A stretch of DNA of 59,634 nucleotides from Chromera velia (Eukaryota), in NCBI GenBank assembly GCA_018398765.1, contig JAHBMJ010000008.1:1-59634 (forward strand). The letters are read 5' to 3'. The stretch's first letter is position 1, and every line of letters starts with the position of its first letter. The notes beneath the pieces were generated by a model that did not search any database, was not told the DNA's origin, and saw nothing but the letters and a program-made list of their open reading frames with translations. Positions 17,331 through 42,112 of the stretch are shown piece after piece. The position numbers were made by a program, and so were the translations under genes.

Positions 17331-17443
17331 CTGATTGACTGCCTGGTTGGCTGGCAAGAAAGGGTTGAGGTAAGCCCTTCCCGATCGTGTGGTTCTGGAG
17401 ATGGCTGCAATGAAAGAGAAACAGAGGCCGTGAAAAAGAACGT

Positions 17444-17455
17444 GCTCTGCTACCA
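17444..17455 (-). promoter_or_regulatory. Primer-binding site (initiator tRNA-Met type)
   Basis: Minus-strand TGGTAGCAGAGC next to the 5' LTR, complementary to the ...CTCTGCTACCA 3' end of eukaryotic tRNAi-Met. Confidence 0.85.
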
Positions 17456-17459
17456 CTTT

Positions 17460-17881
17460 TGTTGGTATGGCTAGCGTGACGGCAGCGTAACGACTATCAA
17501 CTTACGTGTAAAGTCTGTGCATCACTGGTTCGGTTCCTTCTTCCACTTTGTTTGTCTTCGGACATTGCATCACAAAACTGTCATACATCTTACTGTCCAT
17601 CTTCTAATCTCATTTATTTGCATTTAATTCGCATCTTCTGTATTTCATCTGTCCAATACAGAAAAGGAATCTGTATCGTCATTTCTGTATGACTTCTTTT
17701 CATTTATTGCAATACAGTTTGTTTGTTTAATTCCGTATAACACATTCAAGTGTTGTTTGGAAAGTGTTGCATGGCTCGTGTGCGCGGCGTGCATCAATCA
17801 CTCCGGTCCTCCGGGACCGCACTCCTCACGTCCCCTTAGCCCAGAGCGTCACCCCGGCCCGCTCGCCTCTGAAGCCTAACA
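17460..17881 (-). repeat. 5' LTR of the Gypsy element
   Basis: TGTTGG...CTAACA, direct repeat of 11137-11558. Confidence 0.95.
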
Positions 17882-19059
17882 AAATGATAACTTTGAGAAG
17901 CGATAACTAGAGCGATCGATCGATAAAGGAGTTAGTGGCTAGGTTAGTGGTGTCTGCATGCCCACCTGTATATAAGCAGTAGCACTAGATGACTATAGCC
18001 TAGTGACTAGCATTAGTACCGTTTTGTCTCCTAGTTAAATCTAGAGTTAAATTGTCTTTCAAGAATAAAAGGATTATTATAAAAACAAACAGCATTGTTA
18101 CAACAAAGAGTCTGCGTTTCTACTGAGCTAGTTGCATTTCTAAGCCGTGTTTCCTTTCACTAAGCTAGTCATTGCTAGAGTCATTGAGACATCAGACCGC
18201 CCCTACTGGCACACCTACTAATAAGTTATCACCTATAGCCAAGCTAGCCCCACACCCCATTAAATTGAGGTATAATTGCGTTAGATGGGGGGATTAAATG
18301 GGAGTCATTATGGGACATAATTTCACCTCAATTTCTCTAAATGGGCCACAGTGACTATTTTTAGGGGGGCGGGTTAATTATATTATTATATTATTATTAA
18401 AGGTGTTTAATCATGGAATATATTTGTTCATTAGTTACTCACTTCAAAAGTAATATAATCAGGAATGTATTCCTAAATTAATTAAGGGGGGGTCTGGGGA
18501 GCGGAGCCCCCCGGGCTACATTTTTGATTTTTTTTTTTTTTAACACAGTTTATGACTATAAAAAATTGGTTTTGAAAAAGATAAACAGGGGCTATCTAGC
18601 TGTTAGGCACTGTTAATAGGCAGTAGTGTAACAGTTACCATACTAGACTGTATTACAGTGTTACTAGAATTTTATAAAATCTTATAATTTATAAACTTAT
18701 TAAACTAGCAAATAATACATCATATGAATACGCGGTTGAAAGTTCATATATATTCTCATTGCATGAACATGCACACACTACACCAAAATACGCATGCACA
18801 CTGCAGCACACACTGCATAGCGAAAGGAGGCCTTACTGTATACACTACGTAAGATGCACTCTTTTTCACTTTCAGCATTCGAACGTGAAACACCAAAACA
18901 CCATAAGCACTGTCGAGCAAAAAATTATTTGGATACAAACAAGCAGTACATCTTCACTGAAGAAGGAAATGGAACCTCACCCTCTATGGTGATGGAGACA
19001 ATGTGAGGAAGCAGAGTGGCGTTATCTCCCATCTTTGCAATTTTTTTTTTGAGCTCATT

Positions 19060-20597: not shown

Positions 20598-23500
20598 TCA
20601 TCGCGGCGGTGTATCTGATGTTTCACCCCCTTTTCTCTTGTCTCTCGGCCTCCTGCCCATGCGGGGAGACTGGCGGAACGAGTCGAGGGTCTGACCCCCA
20701 CTGTAGAAGCGGGAAAACGTTTTTTTGAAAGGAGCTCCGTCCGCTGAGTTTTCCCCATCCTCCGCATCATCGTCATCTGGGTTGTTGCTTTTGCTTTGAC
20801 AGTCCGATTCCGAAACTGGAAAAGGATTTTCAGAGGCGGCAAGCGGGGCCTCGTCAGACGCTTCCGATCGTCGAGCGTTTACACTCACACTGTCGGCTGC
20901 AACCATCGCTGCAGCACTGTTTGCCGCACTCGATTCTCGTCCCTCCTCCTGCCTTTCAACTTTTTTCCCCACACCCCAGAGACTCCCGAAACCTCTCCAC
21001 AGATCCTGTGGCAATCCTCCGACCCCCTCTGCTTGTCCGCTTTCCTCTTTCTGTTCGAGGGCCCGGCGCTTTTTGAGCACAGAGAGCGTACCCACGTTGT
21101 TCGTTTGGGGTCGGCTTTGGGCGCTGCGGAGGATGAGATCCCAAACCTGCAGGCAAGGCATGCATACACGATGAAGAATGGGTTTGTCTGTCTGGCGGGA
21201 GAGAGGGACACAGGGAGGCAAGAACTTTATTCAGAGAGAGAGGCACCGGCTTTGCGCTTTGTTGTGTGTATGCCGAATCGGCCCTTCTTTTTGTGTGTAT
21301 GCAAAACTAAGACTGGTTCTGGTGGGCTATGTGAATGAAGCCTGGACCGAGTGGGCGGGTCCAACAAACTGGTGTAAAGGGGTCAGACAGAGAAGGGAGA
21401 AATGACTTGAGCGAAGACTGCACATGCAATGAAGCTTTCCTTCCGACTCAAAAGAAACCAAACAAAAGCAACCTGCATGCAGATAGAGAGAAAACAAAAG
21501 ACTGCACATGCAATGAAGCTTTCCTTCCGACTCAAAAGAAACCAAACAAAAGCAATCTGCATGCAGATAGAGAGAAAACAAAAGACTGCACATGCAATGA
21601 AGCTTTCCTTCCGACTCAAAAGAAACCAAACAAAAGCAACTTTCATGCAGATAGAGAGAAAACAAAAGACTGCACATGCAATGAAGCTTTCCTTCCGACT
21701 CAAAAGAGACCACAGAAGAACAGAAAGCGGCAAGCTCGGGTGCTTGAGAAGGATTGACATCCAGTCAGAAAAAACTGCCAGAAAGAGAAAATTAATGAAT
21801 TGGGACCCAGACTCAAGCAACACAAAAGGATAAAATAAATGAGTTTTCGACGTTCGGGATGAAAGAAAAAGCGTACCGACCGCATCACCCTTGTACATCC
21901 GCCTTGCCTCCATCTCCAAAAAAATTTGCCACACCTCATCCTGTTTGCCCCCCCTGCTGCAGGCCTTCATTGCTAACACCAAGGTCTCCCGAGTGATACC
22001 AAGACCCCCCGGACCCCCACCTCTCAGCTCCCGAATCAACAACAAAGCACGCCCGCCCAACCCCCTCTCAGCGCAGATGCGCAGGAGGGCGTGGTATGCA
22101 AGTGTCGTTCTCTTGTGTCCCTCTCGCTGCATTCTCTGAAAGAGCACAAACGCGTTTGCAGAGAAACTCCCATCAGCACTTTCCTTTTCCTGCCCCTCCA
22201 ACCCCTCATGAGAACTGGGAGCATTCCCTCTCTGACTCAAGGGCCCGCACACCGCATTGGCGCACGCAACTATGGCCCAAGAATACGTCAGACCTGTTGG
22301 AGAAACGCCTTCGTGTGCCATCCGGTCTAGGAGAGACATTGCCGTAGAGGCGTCACCTCTATCGGCGCAAACAGCGATGGCTGCTGTGTAAGTATCGGCA
22401 TCCGGTTGCATGACTCGGGACTTCAAGTCCTCGAGAACAGCAACAGCCTCTGCGGAAGGCCGACCTTGTGCACGAAGCACCGAAATCAATCCGATGAACG
22501 CCCCCCTACTGGGAGCCCGGGGGGCTTTTTGATCACTACACAGGCCGGTGTACTCACTCAGGAGCATCTTTGCTCTCTCTGCGCCATCAGGCGCTGTCCT
22601 CTGTGCATATATGGACGCTGTGTAGGCAGCGGAGGAAGGCTGCTGACCCAGAGCGGCCTCCATCTTCCTGAGGAGCGTGACCGCGGCAGGGCCCGCGGCA
22701 GGGTTACGTGAAGCAGCTACAGCGCGAAGGGCGGAAAGGAAGTGATCAGCTGTTCTAGGAACTCCGAGGCGCTTCATCTGGTCAAGTACATTGACCGCCT
22801 TCTCCCACGCCCCGCCCTGCCTGCACGCTTCCAGCGTAATGGCAAAATCCTGTACGTCAGGAGTCACCCCCACCTCTGTCATACGATCCAGCAGCGTACA
22901 AGCGAGGACAAATTTTCCATGGATCATGAAGTTGTAAAGAACGCGCGCGTAGTCATCATGGGCCCTCTGACGTCCGGTTTCCGGCGTCTCCTCATTCATG
23001 GCTTTGAATACGCCCATGATGTTTCCCAACGTTTCTCTGCGAAATCTCTTGAGACCCGGAAAGAAACGAGAAGAACCCGGTCGGCGCCGCATAACCACCA
23101 CGCCACCTGAAGAGACACCTCCTCTCGCTGTTGAGGTACCATCAGGTGAGGTGACGGCTTCGGAGGAATGGAGAGTTGTCTCCGAAAATGTGTGGGAGGG
23201 GTCTAGAACCGCTTCCTCCTGTCCGTCCATCAACTTTTCCTGGATAGCTCCGAACTCCTGCAGGCAGGCAGGCAGGCAGGCAGGCAGAAGACAGATTAAA
23301 AACAGGCGACGCGGATGACTTGCTGACAGCCTATGAACATGCATTCGGCATGAAACTGCTTGCTGCTCGTCTGCCCTAAGAAAACGCCCCACGCTCCCCC
23401 CCACACTGCGCCGAGCGACTCACCTGAAGGAAAAAGTCCCACTCTAAAGAGTCACTTGAAGGATGGCCAGAATGAAAGCTGATTGGCGGGCCCCGTCGAG

Positions 23501-23678
23501 CAGAGATAAACAAGGTGGATGCGGGAACGTTATTGTGCCCCCCCAACTTCTCTCGCGGCTTCCTTCTCCAGGATGGCGCCGAAAACACATATGAACGCAA
23601 GGCACCACTAGGACTTTGAAAGGCCGCTACACTGTGACACAACAAGAATGCACACACACCAATCACAAGAACACACAT
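20598..23678 (-). CDS. Pentatricopeptide-repeat protein, 3 exons, probably plastid-targeted
   Basis: Exons 23678-23424, 23257-21881, 21146-20598. 35-aa repeats such as PDADTYTAAIAVCADRGDASTAMSLLDRMAHEGVS and PDVQDFAITLEACRQGGAWEKAVNVLDQMKRLGVP; hydrophobic leader ending VAA-F. Confidence 0.85.
21414..21708. repeat. Intronic minisatellite, 84-bp unit x~3.5
   Basis: aagactgcacatgcaatgaagctttccttccgactcaaaaga at 21414, 21498, 21582 and 21666. Confidence 0.92.
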
Positions 23679-24021
23679 GCCTTTCGACTCAGAGCCAGAT
23701 TGCTAAAACAGGAGAGAGTGCAGGGTGTCTTCAGCACAGCAGCAAGCAGGTGCAAGGCTTCGAAAACCCAAAAGACGAAGAGACGGGGCTCCTTCCAAAC
23801 ATTTCTACCCAACCATCAACCCCCCATCTCTACAAGCAGGACAGAGTTGTGCTTACATGAACAACACGCTCTACAGCATGAAAGCCGGAGTTCGTATACT
23901 AATATACCGGCCTCTGGCAAAAGTGAAAGTGACCTTCAAAGATTCATGACAAAGAGACTGGAGATGTTTGATCAGCGGCAAATGCGGCTCGTAGAGCTCG
24001 GCAAGGCTCGCGCAGCTAGCA

Positions 24022-24227
24022 TGGCCCCGGAAAGCGAAGCGGGGGGCACTTACAAAACAGAAGGATTAACTAAACAGGTGTTTGGATGTTTAAACAGAAA
24101 TACCCCAGCCCACGCATGCATGCATGCATGCACGCGCAGTGTCGTCTTTCACCAAAAACCCGGCCCTTCGCCGGAAAGCGAAGCGGGGGGCACTTACAAA
24201 ATAGAAATACCCCAGCCCACGCGTGCA
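24022..24227. promoter_or_regulatory. GGCCCCGGAAAGCGAAGC/TGCATGCA motif cluster upstream of the PPR gene, continued at 36430-36483 beyond the LINE
   Basis: ccggaaagcgaagcggggggcactta near 24027, 24171 and 36458, related to the 5.3-6.1 kb array; regulatory role is inferred from position. Confidence 0.5.
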
Positions 24228-24444
24228 ACGAAGTACGATCCTTCCTTCTCCTCTCCCCTTTCCTGTTCTGACCATGAGAAACAGAGAGGGCTCCAACAGA
24301 GAATACGTTTGAGACAAAAACGAGCGAAATCGGTGGTAAATTGACAAAATTGGAGGGAGTGGCTATTTTGCCTTACCTTCACAGCCGAGTATACCCCCGG
24401 ATTCTAAGTCCACAACCCGTCTATTCGCTAAGCCCCTCATAGAG

Positions 24445-27400
24445 ATGTCAGGAGAACGTAGATACGGGCAGGTTTGGATGAGTGCAGAGCCAGGAGAGGA
24501 AGGGTCTCGCCCCGAAGACACACAGGGGGCCCACCCCGGGAGTCACAGAGTAGTGAGGATGAGACGCGACGGAGGAACCAAGCCTGAAAGTCATGACCCC
24601 TCCATGTCACCGTCGGGCCGAGTCAGGCTACGCCCTAGAGTAGTATTAACTCCGAGGAGGAGGGACCAAGACATCGAGGCAGAGGGAGAAGAGTCTGCTT
24701 CCAGAATGGGAGATCCTGTGCAGGATGACAGCTGATCGAACAGGTTGGATACAAGTCGGACTGGGGGCGGGGAGGATAATGACGTTGGTCGAGTAGCTCA
24801 CTATTCCCTCCCAGACCTCAATCCGGAGAGTAAAAGCCCTCCAAACCCCTCTACAGCAAAGGTCTTTTCAGACGATTGCTCCGTGGAGATCACAGGTGAG
24901 GCCATGGCTCCATGCAAACCCTTCCCGTTCCCGCAGATCCTCGGCCCCGCAGGATTTCGGAACAAACAACATGAGATGTGTTTAGGTCGCACCCCCATAG
25001 CACTACAAAGTAGGAGAGGGGGGACAGCAGGAACAACAGATGGAGTAGGCCTGATCCCCCCGCGGGTGGGCAATGATAGGAGCGAGAGAAAGGTGTCTAG
25101 CAGGATGGAGTCACACCCTCGACCTGCTCCTGACCACACCCCCGTAAGCACAGGACCTGATACTAGACCCGACCATTCCTTAGTGGCAAGGCTAGCGTCT
25201 ATGCTGTCAGCGCTCCATGTGAAGTGGGCCAGAATGGATCCAAGGGGACCGTGGGGTGATTTCCAGATGGATGAAGAGGTATTGAGAGCAGGTCTGCTGG
25301 CAGTATTGGTCGAGAATCGCTCTGAGTCCCCCCGAGAGTCGAGTAACAAGAAGATATTCGTTTTCAGCATGAGGCTACCCACTGAGGCAGGGGAGACTGC
25401 AGAGGGGGTACCCCAGTTACAATGGGGGAGCGACCACCCAGGTACCTTGTCAGCGGCGCTGGGGGGCCCGTTGAGTGTACTGGGGGGGATGGCACTAGAG
25501 GCAGGGTTCTGGTTCGTCCCAGTGCATGATTATGAAACACGGCAGTGCATAATGGTCAGGAATGGGGGGGAAGGCGCTGATATAGGGGGTAGAGTCATGA
25601 TGGTGAGCTTGGACTCACTTAGTTGCACGACCACCGCCCCTAGCCTCCTGAAGGAGGGGAAAAGGAGAGTGTTCAGAAGAGTTGCTCTAATGGCAATGGA
25701 GCTATACAGGGCGGTGAGAGGATACATTCCTCAGAATTGGGTGGACTTCCTGTGTGAATAGCCGAGCATGGAAATAGTCGAGCTGTCTATCCCCCAGCAG
25801 GCGGATTTCAATGAGTGGCCGCTATTCCAATGTGGCGACTATGTTCTAGCCTGCCTGGTTGCCGTCCTCAGGTATGACCCGGGAGAGTGGGAAAACATGT
25901 TCCACCAGACTGATGACCAGCCGCATGTGATCCTAGCCGGGAGGGGATGGATGGCAATCCGACTCAGGAGGTAGCTGGCGACAGTTATGTCTGAGGTAAC
26001 AGGAACGTGGGGAGGTGAACCCCCAGAGGGGGGATATGAAGTGACGCGGTCGGAGGCGAGGAAGATCGCCAGGAGGTGGATGTGCGGGCCTGGATTGGGG
26101 AGAGCCAGACAGTGTGGCCGAAGGAATACTAACCAGAGGCAACACGCTAGGTCACAGGTCTGTGAGGGGTGGTGACATTGGGGTGTTGTGTTGGGGGTGG
26201 ACTCCCCCCTGATAGAAAGAGGGCTGTACGGGGCTGTAGCGGCACGGCGTACATAGAGTAGTTATTCACGGTTGCGTACTTGCGTGTGCCTGGGAGAACA
26301 GCATCCTAGAGTTGGGCAGTTCTCGACTCATGAGCCTTGCCAATGAGAGTGAAATGCCCTAGAGCTGGGCTACTCTTGGTATCCATACGAAAGCTTGCAT
26401 GGGTGTGTATGTGCCCTAGAGCTGGGCTGCCACCAGCTTGCCACCCCTTGAGTGTGCGTCGCCTTAGAGCTAGGCCGCCCTCGCTTCCTTTTACACATCT
26501 GGACAGTGTTGCCTTGAGAACCCACTGATTCGTGGTGATGGATTCATTTTTGCAGGAGGGAGGACGTTCTGATGCAGGGGTGGCGTTGCAGGACAGCACA
26601 GAGGAGTTCGTAGAAGGGGGGGCCGCTGAGTTGGAGACCCAGCGGGAGGAAGTGATTGCCGCTGTGGCAGCAGGAGAGTCAGCGGCGAATGGTCGCGCAC
26701 CACCTGGGGCCGGGGGGCAGAATAGACAAGTATGTGGGAGGGACGGTAACGAACTGGTTGCTTCAGTATAGGGCATACAGTTGCCTTGCTTCTGAACGTG
26801 TGGGGTGCAGTGCCCTAGAGCTGGGCTGCCCTGGGTTCCTAAACTGAGTGTGCGTCGCCTTAGAGCTGGGCCGCCCTTGTTTTCCCCCACCTACCTGGTT
26901 GAGTGTCACCCTAGAACTGGGCCGCTCGTACCCTCTCGTAATTATGTTGACTGCATAACCCCTTGAACTGGGCTGTGGTCACTCTCTCTGCTGCTATATT
27001 GTTTGAGTGCTTGGGCTAACAGTCAGCAAACATAATATCATGTGAGTTAGCAAAGCTGTGTCTGTCAGGGTTTATGGTTTGGGGACCCACTGTCTGCGTA
27101 GTGATGGATTTGTTTGTCGCAGGGGCAGAGACTCTCTGGTGGTGGGCTGACACCGCGGAATGGCCACGGAAGGGCAGTGAAGAGAGAAACAGTGGGGAGA
27201 CGACGGGAGGGAAAAAGTGCTGGTGGGAGGGCCAGAGCACCGGTCAAGGGATGTGGAACATGGCCTAGGATGGAGGACCGGAGTGAGCAGGTATGTTGAA
27301 GGCAGTGGGGAGGGAAGTTCCTTAGATTCCGCATGTAGGGGTGCAGTGCCACTGCCTTAGAGCTGGGCTGCCCCCGGATTGCCGTCCTGAGAGTGCATTG

Positions 27401-29890
27401 CCTTAGAGCTAGGCCGCCCTCGCTTCTTTGCTCTGTCTGTCTGAGTGCCGCCCTCAAATTGGGCCACTCCTACTCCCCTGTGACTCAGTTGTGAGGTGCT
27501 GGCTACATAACCCCAAGAGCCTTCTTTGCTGCTGTGAGCGTTAAATAGGTGCTTGCGGCTGGCAGTCAGGGGCACTTGTGTGGCAGTGATGACACAGCTT
27601 GCCAGGGGGTGGTTTTGGTGACCCTCTAATTGAGTGATCATTGGCATGATGTTTGTTGCAGGACCAGGGTTCCCCTACTGGTGGCTCCACCCCCCACCGA
27701 GCTACGCCTTGAGGTTTTGAGTGCTCCCGAGGGGACAGGGGGACGTCGGTTAAAGTGGAGGTGACCACTGCACCGAACCCATTCACACCGGAGGGATGGG
27801 GGCAACGTACCCGGTCGCCCAGACCCGTCCGCCTCCCGCAGTTTCTCGATCCCCCAGACGATATCCCTGACTGGGCAGATCAAGATGACCCAGGCCTGAC
27901 GACAGGATCTAGTGAAGCTATACTGAGGTTGTGCCAGAGGACAATGAGGTTGTATGAGGAGCTGTTTGCGCCGGGGGGAATCTTTGAGGGGCGGAGAAGG
28001 GACGACACTGTCAGGGCGGGGCCCAGTGGGGGGGGAGGACCCCTATCGACGGAGATCCCCTCGGTGAGCAGAGCTGCCCCCACCCTTACCGACCCTCCAA
28101 GTCGGGGGGTGGAGGAATTAGGCGACAAAGTGTGGCGGGCACTCTGTGAGAGGGAACGCGTGAATGACACCCTCGGAGAATATGCGAGGGAACTTTTTCT
28201 TCGTCACCTAGGACAGGGTGATCAGTGAGAACATGGGCAGACCTGGCCACATCAGTTGGGAGGAGCAGCTGCCGCCTCAGTCTCACAGACACTGCAAAGC
28301 CAGATGCCACTGAGGGGGGGACGACAGTCGCATGGGCAGTCCTTTAGTTCCGTTGCAGCGGGACCGACAACGCCTCCCCCCAATGTGCAACCCCCACTGG
28401 GAAGTGAGACTGCCCAGCCTGGGGATCCGGGGCTATAGGTGATGATGGCAGGTGGGTGCCACCTGGCTCACAGTGGGCAGGCGACCCCCCCGCAGTACAC
28501 TAATGGGAACCCACCTCAGTCGCACCAGGGTGCTCAGCCTGGTGCAAGCATCATCCCCCGACTCCTGATCTCCCCACCCTCGCAGAGTTCTTGGCAGGTG
28601 ACGTTGCCACAGGAAACGGTAGCAGGACAGGGTGCCACACAGCGAAACACTACTCAGCTGGGAGAGAGGAGGAGGGCCCCTAGTTCAAGCACAGGCAGGA
28701 ATGGGAAAGGAGGGACCCACGCGGCCGCGGTGGCTGCTCTCTCTTTAGCGCAGGGACTCTCCTCCTCTCTGGCAGTAGCAGCCGGAGGATCCCAGGCTGT
28801 AGCATCGCGGAGGTCAGGCAGGGGGGGTAAAGCGAAGCCTGGAGCCGCACCTCCGCAGGCCATCGGAGGTAAACGAGATCACAGACACCTGACGCCCTCT
28901 GACGATATCCAGACTGACGGTCTGACAAATCCCCCCTCGCCCTCAGCACAGAAAGACTCCCCCAAGCGCCCGAAATCCGCTGTATTGCCCCCCCCCCCAC
29001 CCCTCTCTCTGCCTAGTTACTCAAAATCGCTCTCATAGACCCTGACCAACAGTCTTAGAACCTCTCTTCCCGACCGCCGCGTCGCTGCTTCCGCTGAGGC
29101 GATGGTCCCGCCCCCCTTGATCCCAATAGTCGAAAAAGCCCCCGGTTAGCCTCCTGCTGGGTCTAGAGAGACGGCTGCAGCGGGCTGTGGTAGTCTTTCC
29201 ACACTTGGGAAACAGAATTGGGAGAGTGCTACAGTGGCAGCACCGTCTGCTTCAGCAGGAGGGAGGCCCTACCTGACCTTTCCGCATTTGACCGCTCCGA
29301 GGCAGGGTGAATCGGTCTTTTCGACGCCCCCTCGCAGACAATCCCCAGGACAGACCCTCCCTGAGTTCGGTCACGACATGCAGCCCCGCCTAGGGCCCGA
29401 CACTGACGATGGTACAGAACCTACAGCCCTCTCTCTAGCAGGGCTGCCCCCACTAGGGGCCCACACCGAGGCCCCCACAAGGTAGCAGACGCGTGAAGGC
29501 CCTCCCAAAGGCATGCTAATGGATGCGTTTGTAGAGGACCGGGGTTTCTTCACGGGCTCAGCTGTCCCCCAGACAGCGAAGCCCTCCGTCTCCCTGTCTC
29601 CACCCCTCCACCAGCCTCCCCAACCGTCTAGGGTGACAGCTATCCCGGACCCGTTGCCCCCTCCAGGGTCTAGTCTGCTTTTTCTGCCCCCCGTTTCCTC
29701 ACGCCCCCCACAGGACTCGGGTGGGGAGGACTCGGGGGCGATGTTGGGTCTCAGCAGGCAAGCGGCTGCCCCGGAGGGAAACGGAGGCGCTCTGTAGTAT
29801 CGAAACCGAGCACTGGGAGGAAACAGAGGTGTAGTGTGGGGGAGGGTGATGAATGTTGGCTGGGAGAAAACGATCATTGTCTCGCTGGGG
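24445..29890 (+). pseudogene. LINE ORF1 region with Ulp1/C48-like segment and three putative phase-0 introns
   Basis: One frame 24445-26157, exons 26556-26729 and 27123-27290, then one frame from 27662 to ~29890; interrupted by isolated TAG/TGA stops. Confidence 0.6.
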
Positions 29891-30459
29891 GGGTATGAGA
29901 GCTAGGTACAACTGTGAGTTCCCTCCTTGTAACTTATTTCTCGGATGCTCTCAGACACCCTAGTCAAAGCAGGAGTCTGACCCCCTGACTGTCCACATGG
30001 TTGCCTGCTGAAGCCTCAACTGTGCCCCAGTCTGGTGACATTGCACAGGTTTGCTCAGAGGGGACTGCTTTGAGTGGTCAGACTCCTGATGCCTTTAGGG
30101 GGGAATGTAATAGTAAACTGACCGCTGGTGGTAGTGGGTGTCCCTCCATGACTGGGGCCAGCAAGGACCCGACCTCTGACTTTCTCTTACCCCCGCTGAG
30201 ATCTGATGGTAGCCTAGTAACGACGTTGATTGCAGGCCTGGCAATGGGCACAGCCATCGGAGGGTATCGAATGGAGCGGGAAAGCCCCCCACCCCACATG
30301 ACGATAGCCATCCCCTGTCTGACGGCCAGTGAGGCTCGTGAACCCCTAGCAGACCCCCAGAGAGGTTTTCTGGGAGACTCGGCAGGCGGACCATCGTGGT
30401 GTGGACTCTCTGTGTCTTGTTCTGAATTGTCTGATGGCTTCTCTGTGTTCGATAGTTGG

Positions 30460-33400
30460 ATGCTGGCCATACTGTGTGTGAATGTCTATGGACTGTCCGA
30501 CCGCTTGCAGTGTCCCCACTTCCGGGATCTCTTGGACTGCATGGACATCCTCGTATGTACAGAGACGCGCATGCTGTCAGAAGAACTCCACTTGGACACG
30601 CATTGGTGCCTGAATTTCCCGCACTACCATGAAACAGCAGATGATCTCACTAGGTTTACAGGGGGGGTAGCCTTTTTCGTGAATAAACAATTGTGCCCAG
30701 AGGTCCCAAGAAGCAATGCAATTGGCCCTTCTTGCACCTCAATCAGGTTTCCAGCACCTGCTGAGCTTGCCCAGATCCCCGCAAATCCCCTTTGTGACAA
30801 AGCCCCTGTAACCGAGGCCCGGGTGTTTACAATTGTGGGTGCTTACTTTCCTACCTCTTCTGCGCAGCGTTACGTGGGTGTCTCCTTAGACACCCTCTAG
30901 GATGGGATCCAAGGGGTCCTAATGTCCTCGCAAGCTGACTTCAGAGTCTTGTGTGGGGACTTCAATGCACACACGGCCAACCTTTGCACCAAAGTCCCCC
31001 TCCCGTCGTTATCAGACAACGCCTTTATGCCTCATGCCTCTGACCACATAGCCCTAGCTGGTAGAGAGCAGCGTTCAGGTCCCCCTCTCTATATCCAGAT
31101 CCAAAGGGACAGTAGAGATCGCAGGAGGCCAGACCCACAGGAGAAAACCCTTATTGACAGGGCGTCAGAATGTGAACTGACCATATTGAATGGGGTAAGA
31201 CTCATCCCTGCTGTTCAGCCCCCCCTCCTATCATGCCTGCTCCCCAACCCTCCTGCTATTGATGGTGCTCCGATCTTAGGACAGAGCTGTGAACACCCGT
31301 CTATGACTCAGAAATCACCCGAAGAGAGCCGTGAGGACCCTCTCCTGGGGTCGGCCCTGTGGGACCCTTGTCCGTCGTCTGCCGAGCACACGTATTTCCG
31401 AGAAGCTAGGGTTTCGGTTGTAGACTATATCTTCGTCAGTACAAACCTTCTCCCACTCCTTCGCTCCTTCTCCATCAGAAGGGACAGGGAGATAGCACTG
31501 GATCACACTCTCCTCTGCGCGGGGTTTGGGCAAGCTCAGGTTGTACGGCACAGTGAATGCCCAGTTGCAGAACCTAGGCGTCCAGGCCCCCCCCAGGGGT
31601 CGGACGAGTATCAATAACGGTCTAACCCGCGCTGTTCACAGCATGAGCAACGAGTCCCACTTGCCTCCTGGGCCCCCGCCTACCCTGCCTGAGGGGTGGG
31701 AATTCGCCTCCTACCTTCGTGGCAGCTGGCCAAGGCCCGGTGCCCACTGCCCTGTCCCGACTTTCGATTCACCAGGATTTGTCGATGCGTCAAACAAGCT
31801 GTGCTCCTACCTGAATATCCGTAAATCTCTCTGGATGGGCCTAGATATAGGTGCAGTGCAGCCCCTCCCCCTACCCGCTGGCATGGAGCAGGGGGATACG
31901 ATTGATTCCATTTTCTCCGGATGGTTTCAGGCAGTATGTTGTGAGGCAGGTGGCCGTCCCCCCTTGGTTGCTCCCTGTCCTCCTCCTTTGAACTCCGAGA
32001 GCCCATCACCACCTCCCAGATGTGTTACTCCACCTAACGATGAACAAAGGGGGGTATCTGCGGGGGCGACTTGGAGGGTAGGAAGAAGGTCCAATGTGCC
32101 CCAGAACAGGCCCCCGATTCTCCGACCACTCCGATTAAAGGTGCGGTGGTAGGCAATTGAAGTGAGGAAACAAAAGGCGTTGTTGTTGGCTCTCGGACGA
32201 CTTCCTGTAGGGTCCAGCTGACCGTTACACCTTGTCATCGCAGAGACCCACAAAAAGTACAAGGAGGCTAAAACAGCGTACAACCGAGCCTTATCAGCTT
32301 ATGTGAAGTCGGAGGCAGTGGAGCGGGAAAGAGTGCTGCAAGCAGAACTGCAGAAAAGTCCACAGGGAATCTATGAACTACTCAGAGACCTCTGCAAACG
32401 CGCAGCAGCAAGGTTGATGCCCTCTCGTGCCGACGATGGTACGTCAGCTGCCCCTACAACACAAGTCCCCTCCCCCTGGGCTTTTGCTGAGCACTTTGCT
32501 CAAGTATTCCGCTGTCCTGAGGAATCCAGTCCCGAGGAATGCTGTTCAGGGCCCCTTCCGATTTCTTCCTCTCTCACAGCCCCTGGCATATCGGTCTCAA
32601 CTGTCTCACAGAATGCCCGTGCCCCTCCTGTGCGAGGCTTGGCGCCCTTGAGCACGGAGATACCCCCATCACTTCAGGGGTCCTTTGCCCCCCTAGTGCC
32701 ACCGCCAGGTTTTCCTCCCCTCTCCCCCCTCTCAGACCCCCCCCCCCAACCTGAGGCTTCCGACCCCAGAGCCCCGTCTAGTGCATGGGAAGCTACTGGT
32801 AGGGTATCGCCGTTCCCGGATCTCGAATTCTTCTCTCAGGAGGAAGTAAAGTCCTGTCTAAGGGCTAGTAAGAAAAAGAAGGCGGCTGGCGTTGATGGGC
32901 TAGTGGTTGAGAACCTGAGGAAATGGTCCCAAAACCCGCTCTTCGTAGCCTCAGTCACAGACGTGTTTAACGTCTGCCTTGTAGAGGGCAGAATTGCGTC
33001 AATCTGGAATAGATGTCTTATCTCACCGGTGCTGAAGCCCGGGAAAGACCCGGAGGACCCGGCCTCCTACAGAGCGATCCATCTGCTTGGACACCTCTCG
33101 AAGATGTTCAGCTCACTCATTGATCAGCGATTGAGGAAGATTGTTTCGCTTTCCCGGGTGCAGTTTGGATTTCAAAAGGGTAAAGGTACCAGGGACGCTC
33201 TGTTCGTTTTCAACCACATCCTTAAGAAGTATCACTCCCCAGGTATGCATTGTGTTTTTATCGACTTGAAGCAAGCATTTGACTCGGTAGGACATAAGCG
33301 TCTGTGGGAGTGCTTAAAGGATGAGGGGGTCCCCCCTCATTGGGTATGGGTAACACCGTTGTTCAAGGTATGTACACCGACGTGTGGGCAACGGTCTGTC

Positions 33401-35955
33401 AACCTGCCAGTGAGGGTACGCAGAATCGGTGTGTAGCGGGCTTAGCTCCCACTGCTGGCAAGTTTTGGTTTAGAGAGAGCGTTGGGGTCAAGCAGGGCGA
33501 TCCATTCTCACCACTGTTATTTAATCTCTTTATAAATGACCTCCCGTCTTTTATCGCTGACCGACGTCTTACGGCCCTGCCAAATAGGACTGGGCCATCC
33601 GATCAGAATCTTCAACCCCCCCTCTCGTCTTCCACTCTCCCTCCAGCCTTGCTGGCAGCTGTTTCGTCTGCCTCCTCTTCGTCTTCCAGTCACCCGACTT
33701 CCGCCAAGGTTGGGGTTGGGCCTTCTTCTGACTTCTGTGAGCTTGAGTGCCTCCTTTACGCTGATGATCTCGTTTTGTTTCACCCAGACCCAGGTGAGCT
33801 GACTTGCATGCTTGATCGTTTGTCTGCCTACTGTTAGAAGAACGGATTATCTGTGAATGTCTCAAAGTCATACTCGTTGTTTGTGGGGGAGGAATGGAGT
33901 TTGGGCGAAAGGAAGGTCTTTCTCTTTGGGGGGAAAGTCATACAACGTTGTTTGGAGTTTAAATATCTGGGTGCAATTTTCAACAGGAATAGGGCAGTCA
34001 GTCGCGCTTTTGAAATGCATCTAAAAAAAGGGAAGAGGAAGGTGTTTGCATTACTTGGGGAACTTACACTGCTTGGCAAGGTCTTTCCGGGGAGGTTGAT
34101 AACAATATGCAGGACTGCAGCCTCGTCAGTATTCCTCTATTCGGCGGAGACAGTGGACTTGTCCCCTCGACAACTGCATCTTATTGACGACTTCTGGTTA
34201 AGCCTATGCCGGTCCGAGGTTGGCTTCCCCCAAACCTCCCCAAGGATTCTCACCCTCCTTCAGTTTGGTATCCTGCCCGCAGCCGCAACCCTAGCAGAAA
34301 GAGCGCTCAGGTTCCTGTGAGGAGTGGCGCAGAGGCCAGTGAATGACCTAACCAACCTCGTATATAGATAACTGTGTGAGAGGCGACAACTGGCTATCTT
34401 GGACGACTTTGTTTCTTTCGTTTCGTCCTGTTGTCTCGTAGTAAAACTAGACCGCGCTGATGTGCTTCCACAAAGCCCTTTGTCTTCGAGTATGGTGATG
34501 TCATAGGGGGGGGAGCTCTTTTCATCGCCGATGGGTGGTGTGCAGAGAAAAGTCTGGGAGACGGCAACTCAACAGACAAATTGGTCTTCTCCGGGCGTCC
34601 CCCCCCCTTTTTTCGTCTTACCTCTGTCTCTGTTCCCTCCTTATGGTTGCACATACCTTTCCGATGCCTCGTCAAGCAGGTTTGCACGTCTGCTGTAGCG
34701 TCACGAGCCGTGGCCGCACTTTGAAAAACCGTCCCCCCGTTCCTACCTTCTGGAACGCTCGCTTCCTTTCCAGTCTCGTCGAGTTATCTCTCTTTTCCGA
34801 CTGGGGATCTGCCAGACCTCGGCCAGGACGGCCTTGTTTAGAGGTATGACGGCTTTTTCCCCCCTCGCTCGCTGTTCATTTTGCAAAGAACGAAACCTAA
34901 CGACCCCACCGCAAGATCTACCCATCGGTGATGAGCTTCACGCTCTTTCTGACTGCCCGGAATTTGACTCTGCTAGAGATTGATTCCAGCAGGTCCTGCG
35001 GGTCTCGCCGAAAGCGAAGTACTTCAGCCTCAGCGCACTCGACCGCAGCGAGATATTCTTCATCAAAGTCCTTGTCCCACTACTTTCTGAACGCCCTGGA
35101 TTGGTGGGGCGAACGTTGGTAGGGATCAACGAGTCTTTAATTCGCAAACGAAGAGACATAACGAGACAGGACACCCCTTCAGATGGAGAAGATGTGGGCC
35201 GACAGGGTTTGCCAAATCGGTCTGCTGGCACGGGGGGGGTGAGGGGCACAACGTCTGCTAGACAGTCATGTCAAGCCATCGTCATTCAGGGTCAGAGTCT
35301 TCCGATCCTCTCTTCAACGTCTGCAGCCCCCATCCAAGCCAGTCTGCTGCATAGAGTCGCCGCTAAATCAACTCTTTCTGCAGGCCGGCGTTCCACCATG
35401 TTGCCTGCTGTCCGGTCGTTAGATGCCCACCGTTCAGGCACTTACCCGCTTCCCCCCCTTCTGCCACTGTCACAAGTGTCAGTTGTCTACACGGATGGCG
35501 CCAGCCGCTCTAATGGTACACCGCATGCGAAGGTGGGTTATGGAACATATTGGGGTCCTGGACATCTATGTAACCTCAGCTGTAGACTCAAAGGTAAGCA
35601 GACAAACAATCGAGCCGAGCTGAGTGCGATCATAGCTGCACTTGAAACTGGAATTCTCTATGGTCCTCCTCGCACGCTGATAGTCAAATCTGATTTGTGG
35701 TATGCTTGCCAAGCCCTGGAGTCATGGGTTTCGCGATGGGAAAGAAATGGTTGGAGAAGACCTGATGGAAACTTTAAGCCAGTGTGCAATCAAGATTTGA
35801 TTGGCAAGTTGGTCAGCCTTATCAATGAATACGAATGGGTACTGGGGGGGACTGTGTCTATCCAATAGGTGAAGGCGCACAATAAAGAGCCTAGCAACGA
35901 GGCAGCAGATGCTCTCGCTGTCAAGGATGCGTATCTTCCCATCCCTTGTGCGTAA
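30460..35955 (+). pseudogene. LINE ORF2: AP endonuclease, reverse transcriptase, CCHC finger, RNase H
   Basis: APE: NVYGL, DILVCTETR, GGVAFFV, LCGDFNAH, VDYIFV, LDH. RT: AAGVDGL, QFGF, IDLKQAFDSV, GVKQGDPFSPLLFNL, YADDLV, KYLG. CSFC..DELH..DC finger. RNase H: YTDGAS, TNNRAEL, KSD, *VKAH, NEAADALA. Confidence 0.93.
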
Positions 35956-37239
35956 TGTTCTTGTCTGTAAAGGAGTAAGGGGTTGGGTGTGCTGGTCTGA
36001 TATACTGGGCCGGAGTGAGAAAGCGTAACTTAAGGCGGAGAGGGAGATTTGGTTCTGGCTTTGGAAGTCGAAGACTGTCTGGCGCTGCACCCTACTCTTA
36101 GAACTAGAGGAGGTTGTGCTGACTGAATTTATCTATTCTTCTTCTCGGTCGTTGATGCAGCATGCTTGGTAGGAGTTTTTCTCCTCTTAGCATGAGTCGG
36201 TTTTCCGCCTTAGCCTGTTTTTCCTCATTAACTGGTACTGCATGCCGGAGGTTTTTTATCCAGGACCACTCTAGAGAGCGGGCTAATAGACCGTATGCAT
36301 GACTAGATACGTAGTGAGTGGCGGGTAATGCCGAGCAGTTGCGTGATGTATGTGTATAGGGTGGAGGTACTACCCGGACGGGCGGATGCTCCCATACCCC
36401 CCCTTAATACCTAATACCTAATACCTAACACCCCAGCCCACGCGTGCATGCATGGCCCCGGAAAGCGAAGCGGGGGGCACTTAGTAAACTTTTCCTAGAG
36501 CTCACGATGCATAGAGCTTTGATAAAAAAAAGGCCCCAGAAAGCTTCAACCGCTCCTCAGTGGCTCAGAAAAGCGTCAAAAATTAACCACCTACCCTCGT
36601 TTAATCCACTATCACTTGCTGCCAATGCGTCCAAAGTAGGCAGGCGGTTTTAGCATAGTTTTATAGTCAGTACTACCAAACAATACATGTCGCACTCTTC
36701 CAGCATACGTGTCAAGGAAGAAGGAAGAGGGATCGTCTGGTCATTGTTCTTTTGAAAAACTTTGAGACGTCGTTGAGTTGCCCTCTTTCAGAACCACAAC
36801 TTCAAGTTGAAGAAGAATGCCGTCTCCGCTGGCCATCGATGATCGATCTGCATCCCTCTCCTCTCAATTCGCTCCAAGACTTTCAACACTGTCAGCTGCA
36901 CACCAACATCGGGTGAGACGTCGAAGCAATGCACAGCTGTCTGCGACTGTTTGTGTATCTTCATAGATTCTTGGAAAGTTGTTAAGCGCTTGAGCTGTTC
37001 CCGCTCTGTGTTTGCAGCATTCAGTGTCGACTGGAACTGAAGGCGTACATGTAGCTGTCCTTGAATGTCCTGCGTATACGTCGACCTGGTATTTCTCTCT
37101 ATTTTCTTTTCTGCCTCCATCTATTCAGTTTGTTGATGCATGCCCGTCTCCATCAGGAATTAACGTCTCTTCGTGAAAAAATGCGGACTGCGTCTTCTCC
37201 CGGCCTGGATTGGACCGGTCACAATCAATCACGCTCACA

Positions 37240-38240: not shown

Positions 38241-39131
38241 GAGTCATGATCTAGCCCATAATGATGGGTCTCAAACTAGGTCTCAAATTCCGTCCCTCTG
38301 TCTCTCCTTATTTTGCTCCCACTTTTTTGCAAAGATATTGCAAAGTGGGGCTTGAAGCGGCACCTACTGTCGCAGCCGGTGGCAGCTTATCATGCCTTGA
38401 TTAATTAACTTTGAAGTCGTATGAAGAACGTTCAATAATCTTCAATTGAGGCTACAGGAAATTCATGAAAAAATTAAATGAATGATGGGTCAAAAACTCA
38501 AAGTTAAATAAACCATCATCAAAAAATAAAAAATAAAAAAAAATTATGATGAAAGAAAGATTATTCGAGATACTGTTCGACCACTGTGACATTTTATATT
38601 AAAATAATATTAAAAGAAAATCAATTCTCTTATCAAATGTTTAAATATTTTTAAAGATGCATAGCATAGCATTATGAAAAACCCGTACAGCAGTATTCTT
38701 AAATATACGAGTCTACAAAAAGCCTGTCTAAGCCTCACTGAAGTTTATGCTCGATTATGCTCATATAAAAAATAAGTTATTGGTGGCTTTTATTAAGTGT
38801 CAAAATGTCTGGGCGGCTTCTGCCATTATATATCATTAATTCAAATCTGAGTAAATCAGAATGTTCATGGTGTGCCTGGGGTGAAACCACCATGACTCTG
38901 GAAAATAAAACAGGGGACACTAAATTATGAAACAACTATAGACCAAACAATTCTCGCGACCGCGAGTATACCTTTCCGCAGCTTCAAGCATGCAGCCATA
39001 TAGCATGCATCTAGTACGTACGAATAGCGTGCGTCAAGTAATTATCATTTTTCTTGCTTTCCAGGGCCGTTTGCAAGCTTGCTTACGTCAGATGCACGCG
39101 CAGTGTCTTTCAGAAAAAACCTGGCCCCGAA

Positions 39132-42112
39132 CGTAGCGTTGTGAAGGTCTGACAAGCAGTTGTGTTAGGATGAAATGAAGTACGCGCGCATAACATGCGT
39201 AGGGCGTATGCATGCATGCATGCCGGGAATTAATTGTGCAGCATGCAGTCTCTATGAAGACATCCGTTGTTTGTCTTACAGAACAGAGATAGCAGAACTA
39301 CCCATGCATGACAGAACCTTTATCCGTATGTAGGAGCTGATCCCAGCTACGACTAGCTGAGGGCCTACATCCCTACGTGGTAGCAGAGCCTGAACCGGCC
39401 TCAGTAGGTTCGCGTGCTCTCGTTTCATCGATTGAACATGTGAACAGTCCATCTTCTGCTGTGCGAGTGCAAAGTTACGGATTAACTTTTATCGCCTGCA
39501 CGCAGCCACATCTTGAAGTCCGTAATCAGTAGAGAGCCACGTCTTTCTTTTTCCTTGAAAGTTTGTTTCGATGTCGGTGCCTGATCGCTTTGGGGAGTTC
39601 GTTCTCGCTGTCGAGAGACTCGAGAAATTCAAGCATGTCTCTTTTTTCGAAGTGCACAAGAACGGTCGATCTCTTCTCGACGAAGGAAAAGAGCTTGCAG
39701 AGAAGCTCTTTATTGCTGCAGGGGGCAACTTAGAGACTCTGCAGTCCCGGCAGAAGCCCAACTTTTCCGTTTCAACAACACCGCCCTCCACCAATACAGA
39801 GGGTGTCACGAAGAAGAAGACTCGCAGAAGCAAAAGGATGATGGGAAGAGCCTGGGCCCGCAAGCAATTAAGCAAGACGAATGAAGAGAATGCACCAAAG
39901 TTGATGACGTCTTTGGGGAAGAAAAACAAAAGTGCAGATCGTCTGTCCGCGTTGCTATCATCGCAGGCAGATGGAAAGAAAGAGAAGAGCCCGTGCAGAG
40001 GAAGTGGGTGGAGGCCTGTGGCATCCGTTCCTGATGCCCCACCCAGTCAGGAAGAGTATGTTGAGACAGAAGTGAGTGGTCTGCATGCTCTGCTCCCAAG
40101 AACATTCGTAGGAGCATCAGGGAATGGCAGAGGAGAAGTGAGAGAGACAGAAGACCCGTCTTCATACACTGGTCGACCGACAGACCAGGAGGACGTGAAT
40201 ATGCACCATCCCGCAAGTGGAGAGATGCAGCTGGAGATGCAGTCTGTGGGTCTGTCTGATTTTCCCCCTGTGATTACTCCAGCCGGGGGATATTTACAGA
40301 ACGAAGAGGTAGTTCCTATGTTGCTTGGTGTTCTGCACTCCACTTTGCAAACGTAGGAGAAACCAGGGAGAGCCGAAAGGAGGACCGCAAAGCAGCAGAG
40401 GAAGAGGGAGAGAAAGAAAGAAGCTAAACACCAAACACAGTTGTATACAATCAGACAAACTCGAACGGGGGATCACCAGACGACCCTCGGTGGTTCCCTT
40501 CAGAAGGTAGCTGTGCAGACGTAGGGGGAGAGTGTTTGCATGCACACGGGTTTGTGTAGGGGATCTACAGTGCAAGACGAGATGGGAAGAGCGGCTGTCC
40601 TTCAAGGCCGTAAAGAGAGGAAGAAGATGCGAAAAGAGTGGAAGAAGCAAGAGACGCGGAGGGTTGAAATCAAAACGATTCGACAGGAGCAGACAGAGGC
40701 AAGGGGTTTTGGTAATCAGTCAATGCCTCGCCTTAGAGAACCTTTGCCAGCTTCAGAGACCGCTCCTCGTAGATTTGGCTCCATTCGCCTCCGTGGATGT
40801 GTCAAAATGGGAGATGTGCGAGAAACAAGGGGGCTTGGGAGTTCCACGCCTCTGCTGAGAAGCGTTACCCCGCCAAGGAGAATCAGCAGCATCCATCAGT
40901 CCGATCAAGAGCACACACCGAACACACAGCACGAGGGGTACAGAGTGGAAGAATTGCCTCCGTCTGTCCAGGCACTTTTTCAGGAATCTTGGGCACGATA
41001 TGCGATGGGAATGCCCATTTACTGAGCAAGAGAGTAAGCAGAAGGCATCGTGCAGGGAAGAAACAATTGATGAGGGTGCAACGTAGTAAGTGATCATGTA
41101 GGCATGGAGACGGCGTGTGTCTCTATTCAGTCTTGTTGCACGACTGTCCGATCTCGTCCGTTTGTATTCGTTCTTTTCGTTTGAACAGTCGTCTTGGCCT
41201 GTTTGTCTACCCTGGGGGATCGAATTCTCGCAGTGGTTGTCGTTTGGTTTGATAAAGGAATATCTGTCTGCGCTCGCCAGGAATTTTTTTTTTCGGTGAT
41301 CGTTTCAATCGTTGCGTGCCTTTGCTCAGCTGCGGGGCGCGGCGTTGGAGAAAGGGGGCACGGTGTGGGTGAGGAAGGAAGGGAGGAGACGGAAGCAGGT
41401 GGCATGCAGTAAGGAGACAGAGCAAAGAGAGGAAGAGAAGAAGAGCTGACAGTGACTGACGGCCAGAAAGGGAAGACTCTGTTTGTGTAGCATGACGGCT
41501 GAAATAAGGCAGACATTCAGATCGATCAGAAAAAGAGAGAGCAAGAGTTAAAGTAGGCAGAGGTGGCTGTATTGGCTACGGATTAGCCAATCAGAGAAAC
41601 AGTTCATCTCATGTGCTGCTGCATTCCAGGTTCAAATCCTGTGAACGATTCTTCATCCCGCTTTTCATGTGAGAAAAGAGAGCCTGCTTTGCAATCAGTC
41701 GTCATAAGCCTAATCAGCAGCAAAGGCTGGAAGAAGGAGAACATGACTTGAGGTGACTTGCATAGATTCGAGATCGTTCTGTATGGACCGCGCCTTTTTG
41801 AGATCAAATTGCCTCATGCTGATGAAGTGGCGGGATGCCACTCTAGAGGGAGGGGGCACGTAGCGTTGTGAAGGTCTGACAAGCAGTTGTGTTAGGATAA
41901 AATGAAGTACGTGCGCATAACGTGCGTAGGGCGCATGCATGCATGCATGCATGTATGCCGGGAATTAATTGTGCAGCATGCAGTCTCTATGAAGACATCC
42001 GTTGTTTGTTTTACAGAATAGAGATAGCAGAACTACCCATGCATGACAGAACCTTTATCCGTATGTAGGAGCTGATCCCAGCTACGACTAGCTGAGGGCC
42101 TACATCCCTACG
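39132..42112 (+). mobile_element. Non-autonomous LTR element with CGTAG...CTACG termini
   Basis: LTRs 39132-39377 and 41859-42112; TSD CCGAA at 39127-39131 and 42113-42117; PBS TGGTAGCAGAGC at 39378-39389; PPT agagggaggggg at 41845-41856. Confidence 0.92.
39571..41025 (+). pseudogene. Single ~484-codon frame of unknown function in the LTR element, broken by two TAG stops
   Basis: ORFs 39571-40356 and 40540-41025 share a frame; stops at 40354 and 40522; no gag/pol motif seen. Confidence 0.55.

What the first reader, a model, noticed from the sequence alone, without database searches (positions are those of the whole stretch)
24228..36429. A retrotransposed LINE that appears to keep three spliceosomal introns
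Seen: hallmarks of target-primed retrotransposition (19-bp TSD, (TAATACC)3 tail, APE-RT). Yet ORF1 is split by three GT-AG segments of similar length: 26158-26555 (CAG|GTCTGT..TTTTGCAG), 26730-27122 (CAA|GTATGT..GTCGCAG) and 27291-27661 (CAG|GTATGT..GTTGCAG). All are phase 0, the 174- and 168-nt exons are open, and splicing joins the 24445-26157 frame to the long frame from 27662. Splice sites resemble those of host genes here. Known: retrotransposition normally removes introns; Penelope-like elements are the main exception. Inference: the element translates a spliced mRNA but copies the unspliced RNA. Best candidate for an undescribed system in this window.
Basis: partly seen in the sequence, partly recalled or inferred. 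Interest (0 to 1): 0.88.

Follow-up and report, generated by a model that had tools for sequence, protein, structure and literature searches.

The report
LINE retrotransposon that keeps three introns
In the alga Chromera velia, a family of LINE jumping genes keeps three introns in its genomic copies although those introns are cut out of its assembled transcripts, so it likely makes its proteins from spliced RNA but copies itself from unspliced RNA, a habit described for Penelope-like elements that we could not find in print for LINEs.

Summary
24228-36429 is a decayed, full-length APE-RT-RNase H LINE with an exact 19-bp target-site duplication and a (TAATACC)3 tail; protein hits name the host as Chromera velia. 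Contigs from two putative RNA runs (one study) of a sibling about 5% divergent skip exactly 398, 393 and 371 bases at the predicted junctions. In two DNA runs (two studies) the introns are covered as deeply as the exons, sibling contigs cross intron-exon borders, and a sibling gene model reads into intron 1. One single-copy DNA contig lacks intron 2 alone. New here: the three introns are paralogous (65-74%) and carry a repeated UAGAGCU-loop hairpin; exon 1 likely encodes a Ulp1-like protease; two distant Chromera-type families (32-44% protein identity) show signs of an intron at the same place. Best model (0.8): proteins come from spliced RNA, new copies from unspliced RNA. That the hairpins select the unspliced RNA is a weaker inference (about 0.35). 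Ten literature searches found no intron-retaining LINE; Repbase and subscription journals were not covered. No genome or raw reads were available, so ends and introns were linked physically only in this one copy.

The parts
24209..24227 (+). Left copy of the 19-bp target-site duplication, inside a short very-high-copy genomic repeat
   Evidence: Exact match to 36430-36448; DNA depth over 23883-24204 about 700-800 times the single-copy flank
24228..24444 (+). 5' untranslated region; 5' end of the element
   Evidence: Sibling contigs start to match at 24228 (X3), 24235 (X8) and 24237 (X4) after sequence unlike this flank (tables 7 and 8)
24445..26157 (+). ORF1 exon 1 (571 codons, 3 premature stops); about 25234-26082 is a likely Ulp1/C48-like cysteine-protease domain
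   Evidence: Sibling models 89-90% identical; ESM Atlas features 0.94 with a cluster in which 16% carry PF02902, and 6 of 6 structure rows are C48 clusters, TM 0.50-0.64, each under the tool's bar for naming; HW, D, QQ and C motifs kept in families at 32-44%; Pfam and PDB sequence searches blank
26158..26555 (+). Intron 1 (398 nt, GT-AG, phase 0), with hairpin repeats whose loops start at 26307, 26360, 26417, 26465
   Evidence: Skipped in X3 and X4 contigs; read-through present in sibling model Cvel_18765
26556..26729 (+). ORF1 exon 2 (174 nt)
   Evidence: Open only in the joined frame; present in spliced contigs; model Cvel_5290 joins exon 1 to it at the same residue
26730..27122 (+). Intron 2 (393 nt, GT-AG, phase 0), hairpin loops at 26816, 26861, 26912, 26963
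   Evidence: Skipped in an X3 contig; X4 loose end before 27120 matches the end of exon 2; missing from one single-copy DNA contig in both DNA runs
27123..27290 (+). ORF1 exon 3 (168 nt)
   Evidence: Open only in the joined frame; X3 record 2 carries exon 2, exon 3 and the start of exon 4 in one contig
27291..27661 (+). Intron 3 (371 nt, GT-AG, phase 0), hairpin loops at 27358, 27404 and a degenerate copy near 27455
   Evidence: Skipped in X3 and X4 contigs; sibling DNA contigs cross both borders (table 8)
27662..29917 (+). ORF1 exon 4, largely low-complexity; likely ends at TGA 29915 (TAG 29903 is the alternative); joined ORF1 about 1436 codons
   Evidence: no Pfam family
30022..35955 (+). 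ORF2: APE endonuclease (about 30460-31530), RT (about 32810-34150), Cys-Cys-His-Cys motif (34873-34956), C-terminal RNase H (35479-35931); frameshifts near 31612 and 33350 in this copy
   Evidence: Pfam; PDB best hits eukaryotic RNase H1, E 2e-20; sibling model P0009 starts at 30022 and crosses both frameshifts; sibling contigs lack the 7 and 8 extra bases and show no intron between ORF1 and ORF2
36095..36109 (+). 3' UTR hairpin with a loop one base from the intron loop and a different stem
   Evidence: Only plus-strand hit outside the introns in the 59.6-kb scan; 2 hits on the minus strand give the background; folding z -0.74
36405..36429 (+). 3' tail: (TAATACC)3 plus a partial unit
36430..36448 (+). 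Right copy of the target-site duplication

Best explanation
This is a dead copy of a Chromera velia LINE family whose first gene is split by three introns that are spliced out of the family's transcripts yet stay in most genomic copies, so the element likely keeps two RNA pools: spliced RNA that would be translated and unspliced RNA that is likely reverse-transcribed at the target site. Shown: LINE anatomy and ends in this copy; the three splice junctions in contigs of putative RNA runs; introns in sibling DNA. Inferred: ORF1p (about 1436 aa; unspliced RNA would stop after 576 codons) and ORF2p (start 104 nt after the ORF1 stop) come from the spliced RNA, so ORF2p would have to act on another RNA molecule than its own mRNA. 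Speculative (about 0.35): the repeated intron hairpins are binding sites that make only unspliced RNA a good template, so that copies of spliced RNA are rare dead ends and the introns persist. The three introns likely arose by tandem duplication of one intron-plus-exon unit inside the element.
For: Ends: 19-bp duplication and tail. Splicing: joints of 398 (X3, X4), 393 (X3; X4 as a loose end) and 371 bases (X3, X4), in 2 of 4 putative RNA runs laid; mean contig depth 3.7 and 4.9 over the four bins holding the introns against 14-31 over exons 1 and 4. Retention: in both DNA runs per-site depth at 5 intron sites is 12-22 times the flank against medians of 13 and 11 at 35 exon/UTR sites; those intron sites carry sibling letters in 5-11 contigs each; contigs about 89% identical cross four of the six intron borders; of 15 joint rows shown (1 hidden) none skips intron 1 or 3. 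Cvel_18765 reads into intron 1. Independent insertions: three sibling 5' junctions with flanks unlike this one; sibling gene models under about ten separate Cvel gene-number groups. RNA route: one single-copy DNA contig lacks exactly intron 2, as a partly spliced RNA copied back would. Age: read-through ending Q-V-C 25, 27 and 29 residues after a conserved W in this family and in two at 44% and 32% identity, and a spliced-looking Q-E-G at the same offset in P0002. Introns 65-74% identical to each other.
Against: Only this one copy has both ends and introns on one molecule; no genome was held and contigs are short. The RNA label of X3 and X4 is the tool's guess, both come from one study, and these are contigs, not reads; depth is not a copy number, and paralogous introns can cross-map. 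One DNA joint row is hidden and only 16 of 3125 pieces are shown. The intron-2-less contig has 12 extra letters at the joint and 33 letters on its short side. Translation from the spliced RNA and the identity of the template were not tested. Hairpins: 8 of 9 folded into the motif but z-scores run from -2.3 to +0.5; the covariation count (45 of 48 cells paired) is partly circular, and two of its three two-sided changes come from the 3' UTR copy alone. The intron position in distant families rests on predicted proteins, not DNA.
Confidence: 0.8

Rival explanations
1. Introns persist passively: splicing is slow or partial and the enzyme copies whichever RNA it meets, mostly unspliced; the hairpins have no selective role.
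For: Introns have some cover in X3 and X4; an intron-2-less DNA copy exists; hairpin z-scores are weak.
Against: Contig depth over introns is several-fold lower than over exons in X3 and X4, though contig depth is a poor measure; only one intron-less joint among 15 DNA rows shown; signs of the same intron in families at 32-44% identity suggest long retention. This shares the main claim (unspliced RNA is copied) and differs only in the selection step.
Confidence: 0.4
2. An unseen intronless master copy makes the junction-bearing RNA and the proteins; intron-bearing copies are a non-productive or DNA-duplicated side branch.
For: The expressed sequence differs from the window copy at about 5% of sites; one DNA joint row is hidden and the tool filters some records.
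Against: A fully intronless copy needs three clean DNA joints; one row is hidden and the visible intron-2 joint has 12 extra letters that the RNA joint lacks. This intron-bearing copy has its own target-site duplication and tail. Intron depth equals or exceeds exon depth.
Confidence: 0.08
3. The template is an antisense transcript, in which the spliceosome cannot see the introns, as proposed for Penelope elements (PMC3846280, passage read).
For: It would explain retention simply; contigs give no strand, so it was not excluded directly.
Against: The repeat tail lies at the sense 3' end against the duplication, the polarity of ordinary target-primed reverse transcription (established knowledge); exact loss of intron 2 in one DNA copy needs a sense, spliceable RNA.
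Confidence: 0.05
4. The segments are internal structural repeats removed by cryptic, host-defensive splicing (as in human L1 SpIREs); the working proteins come from unspliced RNA.
For: Human L1 splicing yields dead ends (PMC5860796, abstract read); unspliced RNA could give a 576-codon protease-only product.
Against: All three junctions keep one frame through two short exons that are open only in that frame (about 1 in 27 by chance), and splice ends are kept across introns only 65-74% alike.
Confidence: 0.06

Closest known systems
Penelope-like elements (Penelope, Athena, Chlamys): PMC8557442 and PMC3846280, passages read
   Same: [quoted passage not shown]
   Different: This element has APE, LINE-type RT, RNase H, two ORFs, a repeat tail and no terminal repeats or GIY-YIG domain; it has three coding-region introns, paralogous and hairpin-bearing.
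Ty1/Copia EVD subgenomic splicing: PMC5580714, abstract read
   Same: A spliced RNA serves translation while full-length RNA serves as genome.
   Different: An LTR element with particle packaging; here a LINE, whose proteins normally prefer their own mRNA (PMC5860796 summary), and splicing is needed to build the full ORF1.
Human L1 SpIREs: PMC5860796, abstract read
   Same: Spliced LINE RNA can be copied back and gives dead-end copies; the intron-2-less contig may be the counterpart.
   Different: In L1 splicing is cryptic and destroys function; here it restores the ORF1 frame.
NeSL and Utopia-1_TSP with a Ulp1-like protease; RNase H-bearing LINEs (I group, plant L1, Proto1, Dualen): PMC4640811, passages read
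   Same: N-terminal Ulp1-like protease and an RNase H domain occur in known non-LTR elements.
   Different: Those protease bearers use a restriction-like endonuclease in one ORF; here the likely protease sits in a separate spliced ORF1 ahead of an APE ORF2 with RNase H at the extreme C-terminus.
RTE-group / RTEX LINEs (clade features recalled, not from a call)
   Same: The nearest RT hits (25-33% identity over most of the region, nearly all unnamed) share a C-terminal Cys/His region that I recall as RTEX-like; short-repeat tail.
   Different: No reference-anchored tree could be built; clade not established.

Membership tests
APE-type non-LTR retrotransposon (LINE) | Non-LTR-type reverse transcriptase | tested here: met
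   RVT_1 above cut-off; nearest hits are RVT_1 proteins, many with an APE family
APE-type non-LTR retrotransposon (LINE) | APE endonuclease N-terminal to RT | tested here: inconclusive
   Exo_endo_phos families at E 0.007-0.04, below cut-off, in a decayed copy with insertions; motif order visible in the translation
APE-type non-LTR retrotransposon (LINE) | Target-site duplication, 3' simple-repeat tail, no long terminal repeats | tested here: met
APE-type non-LTR retrotransposon (LINE) | Dispersed copies with a common end and different flanks | tested here: met
   Three sibling 5' junctions with other flanks; sibling models under many gene numbers; their target-site duplications not seen
APE-type non-LTR retrotransposon (LINE) | Genomic copies free of spliceosomal introns (usual expectation) | tested here: not met
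   Three introns spliced in putative RNA contigs and kept in DNA: the exceptional feature, not a reason to reject LINE status
Penelope-like elements | GIY-YIG endonuclease or none, pseudo-LTRs, telomerase-like RT | tested here: not met
   No GIY-YIG hit, no terminal repeats; no hammerhead or other Rfam match
RTEX / RTE group | RT phylogeny within the clade | not tested
   Hits nearly all unnamed and no reference set at hand; resemblance is recalled
RTEX / RTE group | Esterase domain in ORF1 (recalled for RTEX) | tested here: not met
   No Pfam family in ORF1 exons 1 or 4
Ulp1/C48 cysteine protease (ORF1 exon 1) | C48 fold with His-Asp-Cys triad and oxyanion Gln | tested here: inconclusive
   Atlas features and structure point to C48 but under the naming bar; motifs kept in distant families; Pfam and PDB blank; own fold failed, pLDDT 31; the His is lost in this copy and in P0003
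Introners (transposon-made introns) | Many near-identical introns in unrelated host genes | tested here: not met
   Intron depth is of the same order as the element's exons at 80% likeness; no other copy in the window; more diverged copies elsewhere not testable
Two-pool (mRNA versus genomic RNA) retroelements | Proteins from spliced RNA, new copies from unspliced RNA | not testable with these tools
   Needs ribosome profiling or proteomics and a transposition assay

The most novel reading that the evidence does not exclude
A long-lived lineage of Chromera LINEs has abandoned the cis-preference of LINEs and works like a retrovirus: proteins from spliced mRNA pick out unspliced RNA through multiplied hairpin signals placed inside introns and related to a 3'-UTR recognition stem-loop, so that introns are essential heritable parts of the element.
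Probability: 0.3. Interest if true: 0.93.

Novelty: new variant of a known kind. Interest (0 to 1): 0.82.

Why it matters
Loss of introns is the textbook mark of retrotransposition: it underlies retrotransposition reporter assays and the calling of retrogenes (established knowledge), and papers on Penelope-like elements treat intron retention as their exception. A LINE family that keeps three spliced coding introns through many insertions shows that target-primed reverse transcription can favour unspliced RNA. It makes an open question testable in a culturable alga: how a retroelement keeps introns, with candidate cis-signals at known coordinates. It also offers a case of intron multiplication by tandem duplication inside a mobile element.

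Tried and rejected
No genome was held, so copies could not be enumerated. A fourth intron joining ORF1 to ORF2 (candidate 29914-29954) was rejected: X4 record 9 runs unbroken over 28372-30541. Runs X7 and X8 (two other studies) had no cover at the junctions: no evidence either way. No listed holder is on record as RNA. AlphaFold model of ORF1 unusable, so no fold search was run. Rfam: one chance snoRNA match outside the element. Introns do not align significantly to the 3' UTR as a whole. Metagenome scan with the ORF1 alignment: 87 pattern matches, 0 relatives. The Atlas search on the start of exon 4 did not complete. No RT tree was built for lack of named references. A telomeric origin of the tail is unlikely: the Chromera telomere repeat is given as TTTAGGG (PMC3622300, passages). 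Target specificity for the flanking high-copy repeat is not supported: another copy's 5' flank differs. Literature: ten full-text searches listed no intron-retaining LINE; passages of PMC5718144, PMC9940879, PMC7175516, PMC12810828, PMC11203168, PMC13343379 and PMC4120745 had none. PMC4501334: passages and supplement rows seen (LINE total 5.2 Mb, no family detail; files 13-16 not searched). Repbase entries and subscription journals could not be seen and may bear on novelty.
Full report
Observation. The element runs from 24228 to 36429 between exact 19-bp repeats (24209-24227, 36430-36448; the 20-mer is unique) and ends in three TAATACC units. ORF2 has RVT_1 and RNase H above Pfam's cut-offs and weak APE matches below them; the RNase H is closest to eukaryotic RNase H1 and lies at the extreme C-terminus. 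The three segments have the stated coordinates, GT-AG ends and phase 0. Each has 4-9 stops per frame, while the two short exons are open only in the joined frame. The copy is decayed: 10-11 premature stops in ORF1, more in ORF2, and two frameshifts that sibling contigs and a sibling model lack.

Host and family. Protein searches return Chromera velia gene models at about 80-94% identity for ORF1 and ORF2 pieces, under about ten separate gene-number groups, and two models identical to this window over their matched parts. Relatives of the ORF1 domain at 32-44% are further Chromera models plus one unnamed record; 10 proteins passed E 0.001 among 1.84 billion. No genome was held, so public-run contigs were used.

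Splicing. Four putative RNA runs were laid (the RNA label is the tool's guess). X3 and X4, two samples of one study, give joints skipping 398 (both), 393 (X3; in X4 a loose end matching exon 2) and 371 bases (both), at the predicted junctions once the 3-4 base ambiguity is resolved. One X3 contig carries exon 2, exon 3 and the start of exon 4. Mean contig depth over the four bins that hold the introns is 3.7 and 4.9, against 14-31 over exons 1 and 4. The transcribed sequence differs from the window by about 5%, so it comes from a sibling. X7 and X8 do not cover the junctions. An unbroken contig over 28372-30541 rules out an intron between ORF1 and ORF2.

Retention. Two DNA runs from two studies were laid on 23400-28200. 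Depth is not a copy number, but introns and exons can be compared: 12-22 times the single-copy flank at the 5 intron sites listed, medians 13 and 11 at the 35 exon/UTR sites listed (40 of 969 sites shown). The intron sites carry non-window letters in 5-11 contigs each, and contigs about 89% identical to the window cross the end of intron 2, both ends of intron 3 and exon 3 (16 of 3125 pieces shown). Of 15 joint rows shown (1 hidden), none skips intron 1 or 3. One, at single-copy depth in both runs, skips 393 bases at intron 2, with 12 extra letters resembling a local duplication; I read it as a copy made from partly spliced RNA, which tells against absolute retention but for an RNA route. Sibling model Cvel_18765 reads into intron 1, and Cvel_5290 joins exons 1 and 2 at the predicted residue. 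Three sibling contigs begin to match at 24228-24237 after other flanks, so copies sit at different sites; their duplications were not seen, and only the window copy links ends and introns on one molecule.

Intron anatomy. The introns are 65-74% identical to one another and adjacent exons about 61-65% with gaps, which suggests tandem duplication of one intron-exon unit. Each carries repeats of a 4-bp stem with a UAGAGCU-like loop. A scan of the whole window gave 8 plus-strand hits, 7 in the introns and 1 in the element's 3' UTR, and 2 minus-strand hits elsewhere. On 12 aligned copies 45 of 48 cells pair and 3 of 4 pairs change on both sides, but copies were chosen by the motif and two of the three changes come from the 3' UTR copy; single-hairpin z-scores are mostly weak. 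An X8 contig joins 22 letters of an intron-2 hairpin to 3'-UTR-like sequence, a hint that a related element has the motif near its 3' end. The introns do not align to the 3' UTR overall.

Depth in time. In this family the unspliced frame ends Q-V-C 25 residues after a conserved W. Models of two distant families end Q-V-C at 27 and 29 residues, and another model of the first of these has Q-E-G at 27, as the spliced form here does. This suggests the same intron position across families at 32-44% identity; it rests on predicted proteins only.

ORF1. Exon 1 likely encodes a Ulp1/C48-like protease: Atlas features and all 6 structure rows point to C48, under the naming bar, and the motif residues are kept in distant families, while Pfam, PDB and my own fold gave nothing. 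Such proteases are known in NeSL and one Utopia family (PMC4640811, passages). The RT's nearest hits are 25-33% identical over most of the region and nearly all unnamed; an RTEX-like placement is recalled, not tested.

Mechanism. Unspliced RNA would stop ORF1 after 576 codons, about 3.8 kb before ORF2; spliced RNA gives about 1436 codons ending 104 nt before the ORF2 start, the usual bicistronic layout. Since inserted copies keep the introns, the template is likely unspliced sense RNA and the proteins likely come from spliced RNA (0.8). Whether the hairpins select the template (about 0.35) or unspliced RNA is copied passively (about 0.4) is open. A hidden intronless master, an antisense template and cryptic splicing are each under 0.1.

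Known systems and novelty. Penelope-like elements keep introns and are described as unusual or unique in this (PMC8557442, PMC3846280; passages); this element fails their defining features. Copia elements split translation and genome RNA by splicing (PMC5580714, abstract); human L1 splicing yields dead ends (PMC5860796, abstract). Ten searches listed no intron-retaining LINE; Repbase and subscription journals are outside the library. Unchecked notes of this scan propose intron-split LINEs in other genomes; they are leads, not support, and suggest that the trait may recur. Verdict: real, a new variant of a known kind, interest 0.82.

Noticed in passing
window 11137-17882: Decayed LTR retrotransposon on the minus strand: 423-bp terminal repeats 95.5% identical, integrase and RT-RNase H Pfam matches.
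   Followed up: partly
window 24019-24227 and 36449-36489: The LINE sits in a short repeat (core about 40 bp) with DNA depth about 700-800 times the flank and many different neighbours: a very abundant small interspersed element of unknown type.
   Followed up: partly
window 24228-36429: Nearly all premature stops are TAG or TGA, from CAG or CGA where siblings were checked, and CpG is depleted (0.57 against 0.76-0.78 in the flanks): a pattern expected from cytosine methylation and deamination of repeats.
   Followed up: no
window 26730-27124 (DNA runs X1, X2): A single-copy DNA contig lacks intron 2 and has 12 extra letters at the joint: candidate partly processed retrocopy.
   Followed up: partly
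window 26805-26826 and 36190-36322 (run X8): A contig joins an intron-type hairpin to 3'-UTR-like sequence with further skips: possibly a related LINE or a non-autonomous partner.
   Followed up: no
window 46783-47205: An open frame with a Cys/His pattern like the C-terminal region of LINE ORF2 proteins; no Pfam match and no tblastn match with four RT hits.
   Followed up: partly
window 39131-39377 and 41858-42112: A 255-bp repeat pair, 94% identical, around the gene piece at 39559-40356; the public model P0005 fuses this LINE's RT to that gene piece and looks chimeric.
   Followed up: no
window 21383-23419 and 6313-10327: Host genes: a PPR protein whose frame runs into an 84-bp tandem repeat, and a SAICAR synthetase with introns.
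   Followed up: no
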